This document shows, piece by piece, positions 15,553-37,352 of a DNA stretch of 64,000 bases. The stretch covers positions 1-64,000 of IMG/VR virus record IMGVR_UViG_3300029374_000001, one strand, 5' to 3'. The notes under the pieces were generated by a model that had not been told where the DNA came from, made no database searches, and saw only the letters and a list, made by a program, of their open reading frames with translations. How positions within the stretch are numbered: the first letter of the stretch is position 1; each line of letters starts with the position of its first letter. The DNA comes from a virus. Position numbers and translations under genes: made by a program.

Positions 15553-17538
15553 TTATACAAGTCTCCTTTTAAACTTAATATCCAATTCATTCTTTTGTTC
15601 TTCTGACAAATTAGAGTGATCCAAAACAACCATACCATCAATACCATAATTTGTTTCATCAATTCTCATAGCATTGGTCAATGGTTTTTGATTATTGGTA
15701 TTATATTGTGGATCATAAGGTAAGATTTCATTCTTAACTGGATAGAATGGAATCTCTATAGTATTGAAATATTCTAAGATATCTCCATACATCTCTTTGA
15801 AATTAGCCAAATGAAACCATCTATGCATACATTCCAATGGATTGTCTGAAGTCAAATCTTCTATGAATTGACCAGATCTGGTATACATTGGGTTATTGAT
15901 TGCATTTTCGTTTTCATAAATTGTACTTGGAATCTGAATATATCCAATCAATGTATTCGGAGCCATATTATATTCTTGCTGAATAGATGGATACAGTCTT
16001 GTAAAGTCAAAATCAACTGCATTGGATGCTCTCATAATAGGTCTACCATTGATATTATCTTTAATAGAGTCTGCCACCTTAGTTGGTTCTGCTACAAAAG
16101 CTCCTTCATAGGATTTGACATTGCTATGGTCTTTGTACTTGTTGTTATTATTTCCCAATACAAAGTCTCCAAAACCTTTAAACATAATAGAGGCTCGATT
16201 GGTTAAATAGACTGTCTGTCTATGAACTTTTCTATACTGTGTTCCATTTAATAATGCTTTATTAAAGATATACGGAATATCTTCAGATTTGAACTCTATA
16301 CAATACTGTACGATAACGTCCATCATATTATATTTAACAAACGTTCGATAATCGTTATAAGGTAAGTCTTGGATATTGACCGCAATATCATGATAATCCA
16401 ATTTTCTGACACCAGCTACTTCATCTCCTATAGAATCCAAACTATACGATCTGAATTTAGCTCTGCCTTTACGTCTGGAAGCAAACTGAATCAATTGGTC
16501 TAAATATACTGAATAGGAAGTAATGTCTGCATAATCTCCCTTTTCAGCAAATTCCGTAGCAACAGCTCTTTGATCGATATTATAGTTACAACGCTTATAT
16601 TTTGCTGGAATATTCTGAGGACAAATGATTTCTTTTGGATCCACTCCCAGTCTTTTAATTCTATCAATAATAAATGGAATATCGAATGCCATGTTCCATG
16701 CCAAGACAAAATCCGGTTGTTCATGATTAATATATCCAAATAAATCATTCAGCATAACCAATTCATCATCATACATTAGGACTCTTGTTTTCAGATTCTG
16801 TAATTGGTAATACTCAACCTTATCTTGCCCACCCAAAGTATCGGTTAAAAGCTTCATAAATTCTTGATTAAACGAATCGTTATCAAACGAGTCTATAAAT
16901 GGTTGAATCAATGGATTAATATCTGATTGATTCAATAAGAATGTGGTTAATTCTTTTTTATCATGATCCAAATAAGATACTGCATTGATTGGACAGTTGC
17001 CATCTGTTGGAAATGGTGTATCCGATAACTTATTATCAACTTCGATATCCAGATAAGCTCTTGTAATAGGAGTCTCCGTGTTCTTATATTGCTCAGCAAA
17101 TCTCATTCTATAGAAATCTGTAATAGGAATATCAGATTCAAATACTCTTGTGTTTTGCTGGAAATATGCATTGGTCGCTCTGCGGTCTATTTTAATCTGC
17201 TTATTATAATAATCCAATTCTCCTATCGATTGTGCAATAGATTTAGTTAAGCTATTATATTTACATATCACTTGTTTTAGATGATCTTTAGTTTCAAAGA
17301 ACTTTCTATAGCTCGGGGTTTCTACTTCATCTTTTAACACATAATAAAAATATTCGGGTTCTTCGATAAAGGTAATTCCTTTTTGCTTGGTTATATTGTC
17401 TTTATATAAAATCGTCATAAAATCTTTGGAGTAAGATCCTGTCTCTTCATCTCGTCTTCCATATCTATATACAGTATCCATAACAACTAAATCAGAGCCT
17501 AATGGATACTTTGGAATTAATTTAGGAAAATTTGACAT
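15553..17538 (-). CDS. family-B DNA polymerase, part 1 (3'-5' exonuclease domain plus palm motif A)
   Basis: Exo I AYLDIEVD. Exo II LAWNMAFDIPFIIDRI. Exo III YNMMDVIVQY. YEGAFVAEP corresponds to YxGGxVxEP. Motif A is AVDFDFTRLYPSIQQ. The protein ends about 130 aa after motif A. Motifs B and C are absent here and found in 34749..37352. Confidence 0.85.
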   Translation of the reverse strand: MSNFPKLIPKYPLGSDLVVMDTVYRYGRRDEETGSYSKDFMTILYKDNITKQKGITFIEEPEYFYYVLKDEVETPSYRKFFETKDHLKQVICKYNSLTKSIAQSIGELDYYNKQIKIDRRATNAYFQQNTRVFESDIPITDFYRMRFAEQYKNTETPITRAYLDIEVDNKLSDTPFPTDGNCPINAVSYLDHDKKELTTFLLNQSDINPLIQPFIDSFDNDSFNQEFMKLLTDTLGGQDKVEYYQLQNLKTRVLMYDDELVMLNDLFGYINHEQPDFVLAWNMAFDIPFIIDRIKRLGVDPKEIICPQNIPAKYKRCNYNIDQRAVATEFAEKGDYADITSYSVYLDQLIQFASRRKGRAKFRSYSLDSIGDEVAGVRKLDYHDIAVNIQDLPYNDYRTFVKYNMMDVIVQYCIEFKSEDIPYIFNKALLNGTQYRKVHRQTVYLTNRASIMFKGFGDFVLGNNNNKYKDHSNVKSYEGAFVAEPTKVADSIKDNINGRPIMRASNAVDFDFTRLYPSIQQEYNMAPNTLIGYIQIPSTIYENENAINNPMYTRSGQFIEDLTSDNPLECMHRWFHLANFKEMYGDILEYFNTIEIPFYPVKNEILPYDPQYNTNNQKPLTNAMRIDETNYGIDGMVVLDHSNLSEEQKNELDIKFKRRLV

Positions 17539-29825: not shown

Positions 29826-31445
29826 TTACTTTGACTTCTTTTTCTTTTTAGGTTCAGGAATAGGTAATTCCATACAAACCGCGTTAGAGTTGGATATAAA
29901 TCGTCTATTGGCTTTGGATTGCAATGCTTCATAATAATTCTCATTCAGGATAGTATCATCCTTGTCCCATGTTCTGGTAGTATAGTTAAATTTACTATTA
30001 GAAAATACTTCTTCTGTCATAGATGTCGCATACTTTTCAAAGATTTCTTTCTTTGCTTTATAGCATCCTTTGACTGCATCAAAGCCTACATCTACAAAAT
30101 CTATATACGTCGTATCTTTGTCTCTGGTTCTGCCTAAAGATTGTCTAGCTATGACTTTAGATTTAAATACTTCTCCTAAGACCATAGTCATCTTTAATCC
30201 TTTAATATCAATAGCGGCTCCACAAGATTTAGTTGTAGATAAAATAATCATCTTATCCAACTGTTGTTCTTTTTCTATCTTGTTAGTAATTAGAGTGGTA
30301 TAGATTCCTACTTGATCTTTGAGTTCGGGATAATTTTCTATAATCCAATCGTATACAGTCTGTATAGCTCGATTGGTACCAATATAGATCAACGTTTTTC
30401 CTGTTCTGAAGATCATTTCCATAGCTATGGTCAAGATCTTATAGAACTGCTCATTCTTAATCAAATATGAACAGTATCTATTTCGATCAAATCCATATCG
30501 ATTGGTACAATATCGCTCTTGCCCTGGAGTAGGATAAGTATTGTATAATACAGAGATATATCTGGTTCGAGGATCTCTATCTTTATCAAACAGATCTATC
30601 TTAGGTACATTTAAGAAAGTTTCTTGATATATTCTGTCTTCTTCTCTATCTGAACGAAATGGTGTAGCGGTCAGATAGAGTGTCTTATATGTATTGGTAA
30701 AGAAATCAATCTTCCAAATATTATCAAAATCCAAATGAGCCTCATCATAGATCTTAATACCTACTCTAATCTTCTCAAATAAATCTCCTACCTTATCCCA
30801 TCCATAATTAGATGCATAAGAATGAAGAGTTTGATGAGAAGCCAAGAAGTATTTTACTTTAGAGATATTGACCATATTATTCAATATCATAGCAATACTG
30901 CCACTTCCTACAATAGGATAGATTTCTGTAGGAGAACAATCAGTATATTCCATAATACGATCTCTCCACTGTTCAATCCATCCCAAAGAAGAAGTGATCA
31001 TAATAGATCTCATTCCCATCATAGCAGAGCAGCATATTGTTACATATGTTTTACCTGCTCCTGTATTTAGGTTGACTCCTAATTGAGAATATGGTTTGGT
31101 CTCTTGATGCATTCCTTCTCCCAAGATAAATTGTATAGCTTCTCGCTGTACATCGTCTCTTGGTTTATAGCTCAATCGGAATGGGATATTGGTATCATAT
31201 GGGTCTACATTTGGACTGTATTCACATTCTGTTTTAAACAATCTTTCTAAAGAAGAAATATCCATTCCTCTGGGTAAAGTTAATATATGATTTTCTTCAT
31301 CATACATAATTGCTTTATAGGTACCTGCTGCAGGATCCAGTTTATCTGGCACCTGAAAGAACGTTTCCAGGTCTGTTTGGGAACCCTGAATATAGCCAAA
31401 CACTTTTATACACGTTCTAAAGGCTACTATACGGACCCCACTCAT
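29826..31445 (-). CDS. SF2 DEAH-box DNA helicase (UvsW-like)
   Basis: Walker A NTGAGKTY. Motif II KIYDEAHLDF. Motif VI ARQSLGRTRD. Confidence 0.75.
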   Translation of the reverse strand: MSGVRIVAFRTCIKVFGYIQGSQTDLETFFQVPDKLDPAAGTYKAIMYDEENHILTLPRGMDISSLERLFKTECEYSPNVDPYDTNIPFRLSYKPRDDVQREAIQFILGEGMHQETKPYSQLGVNLNTGAGKTYVTICCSAMMGMRSIMITSSLGWIEQWRDRIMEYTDCSPTEIYPIVGSGSIAMILNNMVNISKVKYFLASHQTLHSYASNYGWDKVGDLFEKIRVGIKIYDEAHLDFDNIWKIDFFTNTYKTLYLTATPFRSDREEDRIYQETFLNVPKIDLFDKDRDPRTRYISVLYNTYPTPGQERYCTNRYGFDRNRYCSYLIKNEQFYKILTIAMEMIFRTGKTLIYIGTNRAIQTVYDWIIENYPELKDQVGIYTTLITNKIEKEQQLDKMIILSTTKSCGAAIDIKGLKMTMVLGEVFKSKVIARQSLGRTRDKDTTYIDFVDVGFDAVKGCYKAKKEIFEKYATSMTEEVFSNSKFNYTTRTWDKDDTILNENYYEALQSKANRRFISNSNAVCMELPIPEPKKKKKSK

Positions 31446-31749: not shown

Positions 31750-33861
31750 CTATTCTTTAGGAACCTCAAATACAGCATCAATTAATTCTCTCTTCTTAGG
31801 AGCTTTAACATGATTGGATAAGAAGTCTTGTGGCCTTTCCATAAAGAACAAATCCATCAAAGATGGCTGTGTCTTTTCAAAAGACAATGGATAACATAAT
31901 GCATCATTCAATTTCTGATAAATCAGAGAATTGATAATGCTGGGATTATCTTTCAAAGCTTGATCCAATGTTAAGATCTGATATTCTTCTCCAGGATTCT
32001 CCCATTCTGGTAAGCGCAATCTAGTTCTTGTAGAACGAATCTGATTCATCAGAATAACTTCCAGATGAACCGATTGAATAGTCAACTTACCTTTGATAAT
32101 GAGTTGAACCAATCTCTGTAGAAGAGAGTCTTTGTCGTAGTCAATCTCTCCTATACTACTCTTCTTATTGATCAGCTTCTCAATATCTTTCAGATTCTTA
32201 CCAATATCATTATTCAATATCTGGATGAAGAAGATATTCATCATACTGTCTTCATCGACCAGATCTTTCAGATATACTAAATATTGATCATCTTCTGTTA
32301 GTTCTGCTTTTGTAGTCAGATATGTATTAAACTCTTCCGTCAAATACATTTCTGTATCTTCTGCAGATTTAATAGTGTACCGATCGCCTTTTTTATCCAC
32401 CAATATGAATTCCGTAATATATTTATCCAATGAAGTCTTCTGATCTTCCATACTATCTACATAAGAATCATCAGAATCTGAATAAATAGTGTTGGTGTCT
32501 ATAAGAATATATGCTCCGTGCGTATCTTCTTTTGGAGATATAGAGTTTACATCAATTTCAAAATACTTATCAAATGGAGCAGCCCAATTGAATTTTTCTA
32601 TCACCGTTTCCAACAAGTGCTTTGCTGATAACTGCTTCTGTGTTAGCTGTGCAGATAGTATTTCAGAAGCTAATTTACCAGGGCGAATGTTCCGATTGAT
32701 ATAAGCTAACTCTCCATAACATCTTCTGCATATCCCATGCCCATGCGCTGCACTAGCACAAGTCATAGGAGAATATAAATAAATTGTTTTGCCTATCAGA
32801 TACGTATCTTTCTTAGCGTTAATTAAGTAATCCATTCCATCTGGATCTAGTTTATAATATCGTCCATCTAACATGGATAAGAACTTTTTGTTTTCTACTA
32901 AGATTGTTTGGAAATTGGATGTATTGCAACAATAGTCCATATCCTGGTTTAACATGGTATCCATATTATTGACACCAATAATACGAGCAAATGTACCCGA
33001 CTTGCCAGTATTCTTTTTTGTTTGAATCTGAGCGACTCTGGAAGATGCAGAATCTACAAACTGAGCAGCTACTGTATCCAATCCACCCATAATATAAGAC
33101 TTATCGATAACGTATGGATGAACTCCACCCTGTCCATTTGGTTTAGAACCAATATTAATTGCGAATTCTTTATACTGTCGTTTATTGATACCTTCCCCAG
33201 TCATAAAAGAATTCTTCATACAATGATCATGTCCTAAATACTTCTCAGATTCTTCAATAATTTCTATGCTATCTTCTGCTTTCTTTAATCCATCGTCTTT
33301 AACATCTTCTATCTTCGAATCCGATACAGATGTGTGGATTAATTCGTTAAACTCTTTCACCCTAGACATTAAGTCTATGGTGTCTTTTAAGTTGATTGTA
33401 TTGGATATATACATGGAAAAGAGATCAATATCTTTGAACTTATATAACGTATCATCTAAGATATTATTCAATTCTGTTGGAGATACGATTCTTTTGATCT
33501 TATCAATATAATGATCTAAATAATCTTTAATGGCATTTTGTGTCATAGCCTCAGGGAAGAACAACGCCTCTCCGCTGATAGGCTGGTTAGACCGTACAAC
33601 AATATACCACATCATAATATTAAAATATAAATCGAAAACTGATAACTGTATTATTCCATCATTTACCAGTTCTACATCAATCATAAAATTTTGTACTTCT
33701 TCTAATTCTATCCCATCTTTCATCAGATTTAATATTCCCTCATAATAATCTGACCAATTTGATGAGTTAATTTCGGATGTTTTAATATGACAACGTCCAT
33801 GAGTTGCCAAACTTGCAAACATGTAATAATTTTGTAAGTTTGATAATTGCGGATTAGACAT
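31750..33861 (-). CDS. multisubunit RNA polymerase beta-prime subunit, C-terminal fragment (bridge helix and trigger loop)
   Basis: [39 protein letters not shown] resembles RpoC [84 protein letters not shown] resembles RpoC [46 protein letters not shown]. No NADFDGD motif, so the N-terminal half is encoded elsewhere. Confidence 0.85.
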   Translation of the reverse strand: [703 protein letters not shown]

Positions 33862-34748: not shown

Positions 34749-35179
34749 ATGAAACCTAGTCAAAGTATTGCTTTTCAAGATTATAAAGATACAATGAGAA
34801 GAAACATCAGATATTTATTTCCTCAATTAAGTAGTGACGAGTTGGAACGAGCTATAGAATATTCCATAAATAAGAGAATTATAAACTCAGCTTGTCAACT
34901 GAATGACACATATAAGAATGCTGTATATAATACTAATATGTTAGAATTAACAGAGTATATCATGCATGATCGACCAATACTGACATCCTTCGGATGTCTA
35001 TTTCATAGGCATGGAGATATAGATAATCCATTATACATGATGATACAAGAATTTGCAGATAGACGTAACAGATTTAAGAAAGAAATGCTAAAGCATAAAA
35101 AAGGTAGTGAGCAATATAAACATTTTGACTTAGCTCAAGCCGTCGCTAAGGTGGATGTCAATGCTGAAACAAACGCATT
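34749..35179 (+). CDS. family-B DNA polymerase part 2, exon 1. Ends in the first half of motif B, ...AKVDVNA(F)
   Basis: AAGGAGAT RBS then ATG. The C-terminal RRNRFKKEMLKHKKGSEQYKHFDLAQAVAKVDVNAETNAF corresponds to the pre-motif-B region. K-VDV-NA corresponds to K-xxx-NS of KxxxNSxYG. The frame is closed by a TAA at 35181, which lies inside the intron. Confidence 0.75.
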
Positions 35180-35605
35180 CTAATGCGTTTGGGATAGGCC
35201 TCTTTATAAAGTAATTTATAGAGAGAATCCTGGTGAATTGCTGGAAACCGGTAAAGATCTGATAACTACAATATATTTTTAATATATGAATGTGACGAAA
35301 GTCAGAAACAATATCAGATATAACCTAAGCTGAAATAAAAGAGTAGTATATATGAAATTCTTACTTATTTAAAAGAATATATATATTATTTGCTAAGGGT
35401 ATAATAAGAAAATCCGCAATCAGCAGCGAAGCTTCTATATATTATAGAAGAACGTTCAACGACTATTATGTAGAGTACAAGCGTATTCGAAGTGCCAGGC
35501 TCCAATATAATATTGGATGAAGATATAGTCTGTCCATGTATGAGAGTACATGAAGTTCATAAGAGAACTGGGTAGATGTAGCGAATCTATTCGAACACAT
35601 GAGAT
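35180..35605 (+). ncRNA. group I self-splicing intron with no ORF. Boundaries are accurate to only a few nucleotides.
   Basis: Core elements readable in the sequence: P-like GAATTGCTGGAAACCGG, Q-like AATCCGCAATCAGCAGC, R-like GTTCAACGACTAT, S-like GAAGATATAGTCTGTCC (consensus AAGAUAUAGUCC). A P1-type hairpin AACGCATTctAATGCGTT spans the exon1/intron junction. Splicing restores KVDVNA(F/I)YGAMGQ, matching T4 KIKINSLYGALGN. Confidence 0.8.
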
Positions 35606-37352
35606 CTACGGCGCTATGGGGCAACCATCTTCTATATTTTATAACTTTGAAGTGGCAGCTTCCATTACCAGACAAGGAAGAGCTTCTATTGCAGCATCTA
35701 TTATGCTCTTTGAGTCTTTCTTAGCTAACAATATTAAATTTGGATCTTTGAACGAAGTGATTATGTTCATTGATCATATTGTATTAATGAAACCAACTAG
35801 ACAATATGAAGACCATCGAATCTTAGATAGAGATGTCTCTATCCAAGAAGTCTTTGATAAACTAATGAGTTCTTGTGGATATCGATGGAAACCAGATCAT
35901 ACAGAAGCCAATATTATCTGGAAAATTTTACATCAATTATCCCAATTTCATTTAAACAGACTCTATTATAAAAATAATATCTATGCTTTCTTTAATAATA
36001 CCGCACCCAAAGACTTCTTATTGGAGTTATTATATTCTTTGGATTCTCCATTTATCGATCCCAATTCTCCACCACCAATGATTAAGGCTAATTTGGATGT
36101 ATTGGTAGATATGGTCAAAGAGTATATTTATTATCCATATCAGATCATCGATAAAATAGAACGAGTAGAAACATTGTATCGTCAAATCGATTTAGTAACC
36201 GATACAGATTCTTGTATTATTTGTTTAAATCCATGGTATGAATATGTAGCCAATCTAACCAAAGATCTGGATATCGATCTGAAACATTATGAATTGGATA
36301 TAATTGGATTGTTGAATAAAGAAAATCCCAATGATGCATCTGATTTGAAAGAAGAAAGTAAAACAGAATATATCTACGATTTTAGAAATAAAGAAATTTT
36401 GGAAAGAAAACGATTAGTAGATCCATTTAAAATTATTCCAGAAGACGCTATGAGATATAGCATCATCAATATACTGGCATATATCATTAGTAAGCTATTA
36501 CGAGATTACTTCGATCGTATAAGCATTAAGAATAATGTAACTAATGATGCTCATAATTTTTGTTTGATGAATATGAAGAACGAATTCTTATTCTTACGGA
36601 TGTTATTGTCCGATGCTAAGAAGCATTATGCGTCTATTGTAGAACTTCAGGAAGGTCATAAAGTTCCCTTAGATAAGCAATTAGATATTAAAGGATTACA
36701 GATTGATAAGTCTGTTGTACCAGAATCTACTAAAGAAGCTCTTGGAAATATTTTACATGAAGATGTATTACGACCAAATTATATTGATCAAATGAAGATC
36801 ATCAATAAATTGGCTGTTCTGGAAAAGACCATCTATGATGATATCTATAATGGCGGATTGAAATACTATAGTCCTAAAAAGCTTAAACCATTTGTTACAT
36901 ATAAGAATCCAATGAGTACACAGCAGGTTAAAGCTTCTATTGTTTATAACTTATTTAGAGATGAAGATGAGGCATATATCAATATTGATGAAAATAATTC
37001 TGTATTGATTATTGGAGTTAATATTGATGCTCATTCATTAGAATCTTGTAAACTAAAAGAATCGGATCCTGAGAAATATGAAATCATGAGAAAGATTATT
37101 TATGAGAATCCAGTAATTGAAGTTTCTCAGAATAAAATTGCTGTGAAGATATTCAATGATAATCTAGCTCTAAATAGTCGAAAAATTACTAGTATAGCTA
37201 TTCCTAGAGATAGTCAAACACCTAAATGGATACTAGAGTTTATTGATTATGCCAGCATAGTTAAAGATAATATCGGTACCTTCCCATTGAAGAGTATTGG
37301 TATTACTAAGCTAGATACGAACAGTGCGTACAGTGGCATTATCAATCTATAA
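35606..37352 (+). CDS. family-B DNA polymerase part 2, exon 2 (motif B second half, motif C, KKxY, thumb)
   Basis: YGAMGQPSSIFYNFEVAASITRQGR resembles T4 [25 protein letters not shown]. Motif C is YRQIDLVTDTDSCI. AKKHYASIV corresponds to KKRY. The ORF-track start at 35550 is an internal Met within intron and exon sequence. Confidence 0.8.

What the first reader, a model, noticed from the sequence alone, without database searches (positions are those of the whole stretch)
35180..35605. ORF-less group I intron interrupting motif B of the DNA polymerase gene
Between NAETNAF* and YGAMGQ lies about 426 nt with no ORF. It contains recognisable P (AATTGCTGGAAACC), Q (AATCCGCAATCAGCAGC), R (GTTCAACGACTA) and S (AAGATATAGTCTGTCC) core elements and a P1-like hairpin at the 5' junction. 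Splicing recreates a canonical motif B, KVDVNA(F/I)YGAMGQ. The exact junctions are ambiguous by eye: a U at -1 and a terminal G cannot both be satisfied in frame. The insertion sits exactly in a catalytic motif, which is the typical homing position.
Basis: seen in the sequence. Interest (0 to 1): 0.65.

Follow-up and report, generated by a model that had tools for sequence, protein, structure and literature searches.

The report
Self-splicing intron in phage DNA polymerase
A 438-base self-splicing group I intron with no gene of its own, of the same type as the classic phage T4 introns, interrupts the active-site motif B of a giant phage's DNA polymerase gene; it is real but an ordinary example of a well-known kind.

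Summary
Window 35166-35603 (+) is a 438-nt ORF-less group I intron (Rfam RF00028, 61.3 bits, E 4e-13). It splits motif B (KVDVNA|IYGAMGQ) of the C-terminal "catalytic subunit" gene of a split, divergent family-B DNA polymerase. The host is an uncultivated AR9/PBS1-like jumbo phage.

They can: exon 1 ends at U35165 (GCU), the intron ends at G35603, and the join is in frame. The predicted 721-aa product has the length and motif of intron-less alleles that are 97-99% identical. One such allele, aligned as DNA, lacks exactly these 438 nt.

Six relatives (44-60% protein identity) carry homologous introns at the same codon boundary. Two of them hold an HNH endonuclease ORF in the P6 loop. All seven have U at -1 and a terminal G. 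The P1 guide AGGC is nearly invariant, the P10 guide tends to vary with exon 2, and the core helices show many compensatory changes.

A covariance model of the 3' domain also finds the T4 nrdB and td introns and 99 sites in 80 viral-contig loci. So this is a T4 td/nrdB-type (group IA) intron.

Splicing itself is inferred, not shown. This is a new member of a known kind, of low to moderate interest.

The parts
34749..35165 (+). Exon 1 of the DNA polymerase catalytic-subunit gene (139 codons, ends ...KVDVNA, last codon GCU)
   Evidence: ORF 34749-35183. tblastn to AR9 g152 and PBS1 polymerase, residues 9-139. Intron-less allele L004 is collinear up to this point.
35166..35603 (+). Group I intron, 438 nt, no ORF, T4 td/nrdB type
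   Evidence: RF00028 61.3 bits. Exact 438-nt gap against intron-less L004. Model R1 scores 139 bits at 35454-35602. Fold z = -6.5.
35604..37352 (+). Exon 2 (IYGAMGQ... to the stop codon); with exon 1 it gives a 721-aa protein
   Evidence: The spliced protein matches PF00136 at 52.9 bits across the junction and PF20286 at 116.8 bits.
35181..35183 (+). In-frame TAA five codons into the intron; it ends translation of unspliced RNA
   Evidence: The relatives have TAA or TGA as the first intron codon.
35163..35199 (+). P1: exon GCU (35163-35165) pairs with the internal guide GGC (35197-35199), with the U35165.G35197 wobble at the 5' splice site
   Evidence: All three pairs form in 7 of 7 same-site introns, with one G-C to G.U change.
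35170..35191 (+).
   Evidence: Present in the MFE fold. Absent in L005, L007, L009 and L011; L010 and L012 carry other inserts at this place. The C35176U change in L133 keeps a wobble pair.
35192..35195 (+). P10 guide GGAU, pairs with the first exon-2 bases AUCU (35604-35607)
   Evidence: Guide and exon 2 differ together in some relatives: AAAU with AUUU in L005 and L007, CA(A) with UUG in L012. Weaker in L009 and L010.
35200..35225 (+). P2 hairpin, 11 bp, GUAA loop
   Evidence: Sequence and MFE fold. The A35209G change in L133 keeps pairing. The relatives have a hairpin at this place with a different sequence.
35229..35233 (+). P3 5' strand CCUGG, pairs with 35495-35499
   Evidence: Five pairs, 1-4 pair types per position, 34 of 35 cells paired across the 7 introns.
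35239..35244 (+). P4 5' strand (part of the 'P' element), pairs with 35420-35425 (part of 'Q')
   Evidence: Rfam alignment; pair table.
35249..35416 (+). P5 (35249-35251 with 35414-35416) and its structured peripheral extension: P5a 35257-35264 with 35312-35319, a GAAA-capped hairpin at 35293-35304, and a long AT-rich distal hairpin. This is the ~150 nt the Rfam model treats as an insertion.
   Evidence: P5 and P5a show compensatory changes. The segment is alignable across all 7 same-site introns. Most of the differences from L133 fall in the distal hairpin, 35343-35389. Fold.
35426..35455 (+). P6 (G35426.U35455, C35427-G35454) and P6a hairpin 35432-35450; this is the loop that holds the HNH ORF in L009 and L010
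35461..35465 (+). P7 5' strand GACUA (in the 'R' element), pairs with UAGUC 35526-35530 (in 'S'); P7 is the expected guanosine-binding helix
   Evidence: Invariant in the 7 introns. It covaries in the wider family (3 of 5 pairs change on both sides, 97.9% of cells paired).
35473..35488 (+). P7.2 hairpin between P7 and the 3' strand of P3, an extra helix shared with the T4 td and nrdB introns; P7.1 is missing here
   Evidence: 100% of cells paired, 4 of 6 pairs with changes on both sides. Aligned to the T4 td and nrdB P7.2.
35495..35499 (+). P3 3' strand CCAGG
35501..35517 (+). P8 hairpin
35535..35552 (+). P9 hairpin
   Evidence: 4 of 5 pairs with changes on both sides.
35555..35568 (+). P9.1 hairpin GUUC-AUAAGA-GAAC, a signature also present in the T4 nrdB intron
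35570..35592 (+). P9.2 hairpin
   Evidence: 3 of 5 pairs with changes on both sides. 100% of cells paired in 99 family members.
35603..35603 (+). Terminal G of the intron (omega-G); the 3' splice site follows it
   Evidence: G in 7 of 7 same-site introns. The T4 td match of model R1 ends on td's terminal G.

Best explanation
Window 35166-35603 is a group I self-splicing intron of the T4 td/nrdB type (group IA) that has no homing-endonuclease gene. It sits between the codons for Ala139 and Ile140 of motif B (KxxxN[A/S]xYG) in the gene for the C-terminal catalytic part of a split, divergent family-B DNA polymerase. The host is an AR9/PBS1-like jumbo phage.

Inferred mechanism. After transcription the RNA folds into the P1-P10 architecture. 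An external guanosine bound in P7 attacks the phosphodiester after U35165, which is held in a U.G wobble with G35197 in P1. Exon 2 is then aligned by P10 (GGAU 35192-35195 with AUCU 35604-35607), and the freed exon-1 3'-OH attacks after the terminal G35603. This joins GCU to AUC and restores KVDVNAIYGAMGQ and a 721-aa polymerase subunit. The TAA at 35181 stops ribosomes on unspliced RNA.

The intron is probably a long-term resident of this site. It appears to have been inherited largely vertically in the clade. HNH-endonuclease-bearing versions can home into empty sites, and the endonuclease ORF or the whole intron is repeatedly lost, which would explain the intron-plus and intron-minus alleles among near-identical phages.

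Shown here: the sequence and structure match, the exact insertion boundaries, conservation and covariation, and the presence/absence polymorphism. Inferred: catalytic activity, and the evolutionary history.
For: Family match: RF00028 full-length hit at 61.3 bits, E 4e-13.

Boundaries:
- DNA alignment with intron-less contig L004 shows one 438-nt gap.
- The spliced ORF is 721 aa with KVDVNAIYGAMGQ, as in the intron-less proteins P0001 and P0005; about 30 clusters of 721 aa (one of 737 aa) at 97-99% identity are listed.
- It aligns across motif B to AR9 g152 without a gap.
- The spliced protein reaches PF00136 at 52.9 bits across the junction. Separately, exon 1 gives no match and exon 2 gives 21.8 bits, below the cutoff.

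Comparative evidence:
- Six relatives are interrupted at the identical codon boundary.
- All have ...GCT| before the intron and G| as its last base, and all splice in silico to open frames.
- P1 is conserved, P10 covaries in part, and P3, P5, P5a, P7.2, P9 and P9.2 carry compensatory changes.
- In the 3' domain, 93.2% of cells pair against 30-56% when the partner is slid, 18 pairs change on both sides, and 0 of 500 shuffles reach this.

Family:
- Model R1 hits the T4 nrdB intron at 95.6 bits and td at 75.2 bits. It finds 99 sites in 80 IMG/VR loci with 96.4% of cells paired.

Independent copy: a second intron-plus allele (L133) differs at 18 positions. None lies in the core helices, and the two changes in the P1 hairpin and P2 keep pairing.

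Mobility: L009 and L010 carry ~260-aa HNH_3/NUMOD4 ORFs in the P6 loop. The nearest solved structure is I-HmuI.

History: intron similarity broadly tracks host-protein similarity (L010-L012 74% vs 70%; L005-L007 70.5% vs 68.5%).
Against: No RNA or biochemical data exist, so splicing is inferred from sequence alone.

P1 has only three exon base pairs, and P10 is weak in some relatives (2 bp in L010).

The window's intron lacks P7.1, which most family members have. L010 lacks it too.

RF00028 fails to detect five of the seven same-site homologues, so the Rfam score alone is not a robust criterion for this family.

The vertical-inheritance reading rests on seven taxa and simple identity matrices, not on trees.
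Confidence: 0.93

Rival explanations
1. A decayed, no longer self-splicing relic of a group I intron. The polymerase catalytic subunit would then be made as two polypeptides (144 aa ending ...NAETNAF, and 600 aa starting at ATG 35550), or the gene would be dead.
For: An in-frame ATG at 35550 gives a 600-aa ORF, which gene callers report (P0011). The polymerase of this phage group is already split into two genes. P7.1 is missing, and P1 has only 3 exon pairs.
Against: The break would cut motif B between N-A and I-Y-G. All conserved core elements (P3, P4, P6, P7, the R and S elements, the terminal G, the U.G pair) are intact. Differences from the second copy avoid the core and keep pairing. Seven diverged copies keep the structure through compensatory changes, which implies selection on the RNA. 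ATG 35550 lies inside the P9 stem. In the other introns the called exon-2 ORFs start at various points in or after the intron, not at a conserved site.
Confidence: 0.04
2. An active ribozyme that needs a phage or host protein cofactor (maturase or chaperone) to splice efficiently in vivo.
For: P1 and P10 are short and the peripheral extensions are AT-rich. From general knowledge, some group I introns depend on proteins such as CYT-18 or StpA.
Against: No intron ORF or maturase is present. By established knowledge its closest known relatives, T4 td and nrdB, self-splice in vitro. The extensive P5 extension and P7.2, P9.1 and P9.2 are the kind of peripheral elements that stabilise the core.
Confidence: 0.1
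3. An assembly or chimera artefact: intron sequence joined into the polymerase gene by misassembly.
For: The window appears to derive from an uncultivated phage: the only close relatives found are metagenome-assembled contigs.
Against: The same intron at the same site occurs in an independent assembly (L133), with 18 differences in the intron. The 600-aa ORF cluster stands for 115 member sequences. Homologues sit at the identical site in six other phage lineages from different samples.
Confidence: 0.01

Closest known systems
Phage T4 nrdB and td group I introns (group IA; IA2 in the Michel-Westhof scheme, by my own knowledge)
   Same: Same 3'-domain architecture: P7, (P7.1), P7.2, 3' strand of P3, P8, 3' strand of P7, P9, P9.1, P9.2, then a GAAC...G tail. 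A model built only from the jumbo-phage introns scores nrdB at 95.6 bits and td at 75.2 bits, and the td match ends on td's terminal G. The nrdB intron shares the AGUUCAUAAGAGAAC P9.1. The endonuclease ORF of the HEG-bearing relatives lies between the P4 3' strand and the R element, as I-TevI does in td. The insertion is in a nucleotide-metabolism or replication gene at a conserved motif.
   Different: The host gene is different (a divergent family-B polymerase rather than thymidylate synthase or ribonucleotide reductase). This copy has no ORF. P7.1 is absent in the window. There is a ~160-nt structured P5 extension that td lacks, and an extra hairpin in the P1 loop.
Group I introns in DNA polymerase genes of Bacillus phages SPO1, SP82 and Bastille (I-HmuI, I-BasI) and of T7-like phages
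   Same: A self-splicing intron in a phage DNA polymerase gene at a conserved site. The relatives' HNH endonuclease is most similar to I-HmuI (PDB 1U3E, E 3e-5). Literature cited in PMC12908238.
   Different: By my own knowledge those polymerases are family A, so the insertion sites are not homologous. The window's copy lacks the endonuclease.
Intron-disrupted genes of AR9-like jumbo phages (AR9; Staphylococcus phages MarsHill, Madawaska, Machias)
   Same: Same phage group: synteny with AR9 g152-g154 and 27% protein identity to AR9 g152. Published work reports introns in RNA polymerase subunits, DNA polymerase subunits, gyrase and terminase of these phages (bioRxiv 10.1101/2020.12.14.422802).
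   Different: The AR9 and PBS1 polymerase gene is uninterrupted. The Staphylococcus phage polymerase genes are broken at other positions, downstream of motif B, by short AT-rich gaps that give no Rfam hit. I did not find the motif-B site described in the papers I read.
PhiPA3 RNA-polymerase-gene group I intron with an HNH endonuclease (interference competition between jumbo phages)
   Same: A group I intron in an essential polymerase gene of a jumbo phage. Homing endonucleases as weapons between co-infecting relatives is the theme of PMC12908238, section 15.
   Different: A different gene and phage lineage. The window's intron has no endonuclease, so at most it would be the protected (immune) allele.

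Membership tests
Group I intron (Rfam RF00028) | Match to the family covariance model at or above the curated gathering score | tested here: met
   61.3 bits against a gathering score of 50, E 4.1e-13, model positions 1-253 of 253.
Group I intron (Rfam RF00028) | Conserved core helices P3-P8, including the P3/P7 pseudoknot and the P, Q, R and S elements | tested here: met
   P3, P4, P5, P6, P7 and P8 are located and pair in 7 homologues, with compensatory changes in P3 and P5. P7 is invariant in these 7 and covaries in the 99-member alignment.
Group I intron (Rfam RF00028) | U at the last exon-1 position, in a U.G wobble with the internal guide (P1) | tested here: met
   U35165.G35197, with U.G in 7 of 7 same-site introns. 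GCT in all 8 intron-plus alleles, against GCG, GCA or GCT in intron-less alleles.
Group I intron (Rfam RF00028) | G as the last intron nucleotide, and P10 pairing of the guide with exon 2 | tested here: met
   G35603, with G in 7 of 7. P10 is GGAU with AUCU; guide and exon 2 differ together in L005, L007 and L012, and the pairing is weak in L009 and L010.
Group I intron (Rfam RF00028) | Removal restores an intact, functional reading frame | tested here: met
   A 721-aa product with the same length and motif B as natural intron-less alleles. The PF00136 match is restored across the junction.
Group I intron (Rfam RF00028) | Guanosine-dependent self-splicing (catalytic activity) | not testable with these tools
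   Needs in-vitro transcription and splicing, or RNA from infected cells.
Group IA, T4 td/nrdB type (IA2) | Extra helices P7.1 and P7.2 between the 5' strand of P7 and the 3' strand of P3 | tested here: inconclusive
   P7.2 is present (35473-35488) and covaries. P7.1 is absent in the window and in L010 but present in 5 of the 7 homologues.
Group IA, T4 td/nrdB type (IA2) | Sequence and structure similarity to the type members | tested here: met
   Model R1, built from the same-site introns, scores T4 nrdB at 95.6 bits (E 9e-23) and T4 td at 75.2 bits (E 1e-17), full length. The T4 record annotates both as 'group 1A' introns.
Mobile (homing) group I intron | An intron-encoded homing endonuclease | tested here: not met
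   No ORF of endonuclease size in 35166-35603. tblastn with the L009 and L010 endonucleases finds nothing in the 64-kb window (best E 0.2). Homologues at the same site do carry an HNH ORF.
Mobile (homing) group I intron | Presence/absence polymorphism at one site among close relatives | tested here: met
   Intron-less 721-aa alleles at 97-99% identity, alongside intron-plus alleles (the window, L133, and the P0011 cluster of 115 sequences).
Family B DNA polymerase, divergent jumbo-phage form (PF20286 divDNApol) | Pfam match above the cutoff, and motif B KxxxN[S/A]xYG | tested here: met
   PF20286 at 116.8 bits and PF00136 at 52.9 bits for the spliced protein. KVDVNAIYG aligns with KLLANSFYG of AR9.

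The most novel reading that the evidence does not exclude
The ORF-less intron may not be just a passive remnant. It may be kept because it makes the polymerase gene immune to the HNH homing endonucleases carried by the same-site introns of co-infecting relatives. By occupying and splitting the recognition site in motif B, it would act as a resistance allele in interference competition between jumbo phages. This would explain why ORF-less copies persist at one site across a clade that has diverged to 44-60% protein identity, while intron-less alleles coexist at 97-99% identity.
Probability: 0.25. Interest if true: 0.5.

Novelty: new member of a known kind. Interest (0 to 1): 0.27.

Why it matters
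For annotation, gene callers currently split this essential gene into a 144-aa and a 600-aa ORF (the P0011 cluster alone stands for 115 sequences). The correct product is a 721-aa polymerase subunit joined at 35165|35604.

The finding documents an intron insertion hot spot at motif B (N-A|I-Y-G) of the divergent family-B polymerase. It is shared by at least seven lineages of uncultivated AR9-like jumbo phages. Endonuclease-bearing, ORF-less and empty alleles all occur, so this is a compact natural data set for the homing cycle and for competition between phages through introns.

It also shows that RF00028 misses most members of this abundant td/nrdB-like phage intron family, so intron counts in phage metagenomes based on Rfam alone are underestimates.

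None of this changes what is understood about group I introns.

Tried and rejected
- Alternative junctions. A 5' splice site after U35162 or U35158, or inside the 35171-35190 hairpin, either loses a motif-B residue, destroys the N, or has no U.G pair. Placing the 438-nt gap one base to the left (35165-35602) reproduces the intron-less GCG codon but gives C at -1 and A as the last intron base, so I rejected it.
- Near-identical DNA in the phage collection (megablast): none.
- Rfam on AR9, the Staphylococcus phage loci, L004, L005, L007 and L009 at gathering score: nothing. At E <= 1 on L005-L012: only L011, at 52.4 bits.
- A second intron in the window. Core-motif matching on both strands and model R1 with filters off found only the known one. 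The next R1 hit (17023-17176, minus strand, 18 bits) lies inside an uninterrupted 661-aa ORF and has no Rfam support, so I take it as chance.
- A homing-endonuclease gene elsewhere in the window related to those of L009 and L010: none.
- The idea that the ~150 nt the Rfam model skips in P5 is a decayed endonuclease ORF: rejected. The segment is a conserved, covarying P5 extension, and the relatives' ORFs sit in P6.
- Exact look-up of the window's own 600-aa ORF in the assembly index: not on record.
- The window's 5' junction 21-mer in IMG/VR: no match.
- A co-conversion tract in the flanking exons, from comparing the window, L133 and L004: no clear pattern.

Full report
**1. Observation**

The exon-1 reading frame (ORF 34749-35183) runs five codons past the motif-B residues ...KVDVNA and stops at TAA 35181-35183. 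The YGAMGQ continuation begins at 35607, in the frame of a 600-aa ORF whose ATG (35550) lies inside the intervening sequence.

Rfam RF00028 (Intron_gpI) matches 35179-35552 on the + strand over the whole model, at 61.3 bits (gathering score 50) and E 4.1e-13. It is the only Rfam family found in the 64 kb. The 438-nt RNA folds much better than shuffled controls (z = -6.5).

**2. The host gene**

Exon 2 matches Pfam PF20286, 'Divergent Family B DNA polymerase'. By tblastn both exons match the 'DNA-polymerase catalytic subunit' g152 of Bacillus jumbo phage AR9 and its PBS1-group relatives at about 27% identity. In AR9 the two matches are separated by a single codon. Gene order is also as in AR9: a small gene on the opposite strand, then the C-terminal part of the non-virion RNA polymerase beta' subunit.

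The window therefore comes from an uncultivated AR9-like jumbo phage. Closely related contigs are about 258 kb long.

**3. Exact junctions**

They do:
- Exon 1 ends with GCU (U35165).
- The intron is 35166-35603 and ends in G35603.
- Exon 2 starts with AUC at 35604.

The joined ORF is 721 aa and reads ...AKVDVNAIYGAMGQ.... It aligns to AR9 g152 through motif B without a gap (KVDVNAIYG against KLLANSFYG).

The protein database holds about 30 clusters at 97-99% identity, all of 721 aa except one of 737 aa. The three whose sequences I retrieved read KVDVNAIYGAMGQ (P0001, P0005) or KIDVNGIYGAMGQ (P0030). It also holds a 600-aa cluster (P0011, 115 member sequences) that corresponds to the intron-containing form.

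A DNA alignment of the window with one intron-less contig (L004) shows a single gap of exactly 438 nt. The intron-less allele reads GCG ATC. The gap can therefore be drawn one base to the left, but only 35165|35166...35603|35604 gives U(-1) and a terminal G.

The spliced protein reaches PF00136 (DNA_pol_B) at 52.9 bits across the junction. Exon 1 alone gives nothing, and exon 2 alone gives 21.8 bits, below the cutoff.

**4. Homologous introns at the same site**

Many database homologues are N-terminally truncated ORFs of 540-590 aa. I fetched six of their contigs, with 44-60% protein identity to the window. Every one is interrupted between the same two codons, N-A|I/L-Y-G.

| Locus | Interruption | ORF inside |
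|---|---|---|
| L005 | 344 nt | none |
| L007 | 382 nt | none |
| L011 | 354 nt | none |
| L012 | 481 nt | none |
| L009 | 1255 nt | ~260 aa, HNH_3 |
| L010 | 1225 nt | ~260 aa, NUMOD4 |

The nearest solved structure to the L009 ORF is I-HmuI (PDB 1U3E), the SPO1 DNA polymerase intron endonuclease. In both loci the ORF lies in the P6 loop.

All seven introns are preceded by ...GCT and end in G. All splice in silico to open reading frames with an intact motif B.

A second intron-plus allele close to the window (L133) differs at 18 intron positions. Fourteen lie in the distal P5 hairpin and none in the core helices. The two changes in stems (35176 in the P1 hairpin, 35209 in P2) convert Watson-Crick pairs to wobble pairs.

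**5. Structure**

From a segment-wise alignment of the seven introns I placed the helices.

- **P1:** G35163-C35199, C35164-G35198, U35165.G35197. The guide AGGC is nearly invariant, and U.G occurs in 7 of 7.
- **P1 loop hairpin:** L005, L007, L009 and L011 lack it; L010 and L012 carry other inserts there.
- **P10:** guide GGAU (35192-35195) with exon-2 AUCU. Guide and exon 2 differ together in some relatives: AAAU with AUUU in L005 and L007, CA(A) with UUG in L012. The pairing is weaker in L009 and L010.
- **Other helices:** P2 35200-35225 (GUAA loop); P3 35229-35233 with 35495-35499 (up to four pair types per position); P4 35239-35244 with 35420-35425; P5 35249-35251 with 35414-35416; P6/P6a 35426-35455; P7 35461-35465 with 35526-35530; P7.2 35473-35488; P8 35501-35517; P9 35535-35552; P9.1 35555-35568; P9.2 35570-35592; terminal G 35603.
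- **P5 extension:** about 160 nt (P5a 35257-35264 with 35312-35319, a GAAA hairpin, and a long AT-rich distal hairpin). It is alignable in all seven introns. This is the stretch the Rfam model treats as an insertion. It is not a decayed ORF.

A formal count on the 3' domain (alignment A1, 34 pairs) gives:
- 93.2% of cells paired, against 30-56% when the 3' partners are slid by 1-3 columns;
- 18 pairs with changes on both sides;
- 0 of 500 shuffles reaching the observed values.

**6. Which kind of group I intron**

A covariance model of the 3' domain (R1), built only from the seven same-site introns, finds:
- in the window, only this intron (139 bits);
- in the T4 genome, the nrdB intron (95.6 bits, E 9e-23) and the td intron (75.2 bits, E 1e-17). 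Both matches are full length, and the td match ends on the terminal G that I had located independently.

The order of elements is the same as in td and nrdB: P7, (P7.1), GUA, P7.2, GAA plus the 3' strand of P3, P8, GAUAUAGUC, P9, P9.1, P9.2, GAAC...G. The T4 record labels both as group IA introns. Their assignment to subgroup IA2 is my own knowledge (Michel and Westhof 1990).

The P9.1 19-mer GAAGTTCATAAGAGAACTG occurs in at least 120 stretches of IMG/VR viral contigs. R1 finds 99 sites in the 80 of those loci that I searched, and 96.4% of cells pair in the resulting alignment. That alignment was fitted to the model, so it leans towards the structure.

The window's intron is thus a member of a very common phage intron family. 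Its only peculiarities are the missing P7.1 (shared with L010), the P1-loop hairpin and a long distal P5 hairpin.

**7. Mechanism and history (inferred)**

The standard two-step guanosine-initiated transesterification would join GCU to AUC. The stop codon just inside the intron (TAA or TGA as the first intron codon in the relatives, five codons in here) would keep ribosomes out of the folding ribozyme.

Intron similarity broadly tracks host-protein similarity:

| Pair | Intron identity | Host protein identity |
|---|---|---|
| L010-L012 | 74% | 70% |
| L005-L007 | 70.5% | 68.5% |

The endonuclease ORF is present in L010 but absent in its closest relative, L012. This fits long residence at the site with repeated gain or loss of the ORF, and occasional loss or gain of the whole intron. 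The intron-less alleles at 97-99% identity to the window are an example. The pattern matches the classical homing cycle.

The Ala codon before the intron is GCT in all eight intron-plus alleles. Five independent intron-less alleles have GCG (one), GCA (three) and GCT (one). This is consistent with the need for U at -1, but the sample is small and the sequences are related.

**8. Comparison with what is known**

Group I introns in phage replication genes, including DNA polymerase genes, are textbook cases: SPO1, SP82, Bastille, T7-like phages and phage G (cited in PMC12908238, and PMC7824862). AR9-like jumbo phages are already described as rich in introns, including in the DNA polymerase subunits of the Staphylococcus phages MarsHill, Madawaska and Machias. 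The AR9 polymerase gene itself is intact (bioRxiv 10.1101/2020.12.14.422802).

In the Staphylococcus phage loci I examined, the polymerase gene is broken at other positions, and motif B (KILANSYYG) is intact. I did not find the motif-B site described in the papers I read.

**9. Verdict**

This is a new member of a known kind. Catalytic activity remains to be shown experimentally. Interest is low to moderate.

The most novel reading the data allow is that the ORF-less intron persists as an immunity allele against the HNH endonucleases of related co-infecting phages. I put this at about 0.25.

Noticed in passing
window 15553-17538 (-): A 661-aa ORF carries the family-B exonuclease domain (PF03104, E 1.6e-11; a DIEVD ExoI-like motif) and a motif-A-like DFTRLYPS. 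The polymerase is therefore encoded as two separate genes about 17 kb apart on opposite strands, and the intron sits in the C-terminal (motif B/C) gene.
   Followed up: partly
L005, L007, L009, L010, L012 (same-site introns): Rfam RF00028 fails to report five of the seven clearly homologous introns even at E <= 1 (only the window at 61.3 bits and L011 at 52.4 bits). Rfam-based intron censuses of phage metagenomes will undercount this family.
   Followed up: yes
L009 1439-2221 and L010 1523-2308: HNH-type homing endonuclease ORFs of ~260 aa (HNH_3 and NUMOD4; 42% identical to each other; nearest solved structure I-HmuI, 1U3E) sit in the P6 loop of the same-site introns of two distant relatives. 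L012, the closest relative of L010, has none.
   Followed up: partly
L002 3103-3301; L003 3103-3301 and 3528-3774 (Staphylococcus jumbo phages PB50 and AH12): The homologous polymerase gene is broken at other positions, around and downstream of motif C, by AT-rich gaps of 200-250 nt. These give no Rfam hit and only weak hits to my model (E 0.002-0.02). They may be small or atypical introns.
   Followed up: partly
Codon 139 (window 35163-35165) and homologous codons in L004, L135-L140: The Ala codon before the insertion site is GCT in all 8 intron-plus alleles, but GCG, GCA (three times) or GCT in five intron-less alleles. This fits selection or co-conversion for U at -1.
   Followed up: partly
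IMG/VR loci L013-L092: The P9.1 19-mer GAAGTTCATAAGAGAACTG occurs in at least 120 viral-contig stretches, and several contigs carry two to four copies of the intron 3' domain (for example L080, L054, L015). I did not examine the host genes of these introns.
   Followed up: no
window 31750-33861 (-) and 29826-31445 (-): The neighbours are a 703-aa ORF at the position of AR9 g154 (non-virion RNA polymerase beta' C-terminal part; no Pfam hit) and a ResIII/DEAD-type helicase. Both appear uninterrupted here, although RNA polymerase genes are often intron-split in this phage group.
   Followed up: no
window 17023-17176 (-): A weak hit of the intron 3'-domain model (18 bits, rough E 0.006) lies inside the uninterrupted 661-aa polymerase N-terminal ORF and has no Rfam support. 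I take it as a chance match.
   Followed up: yes
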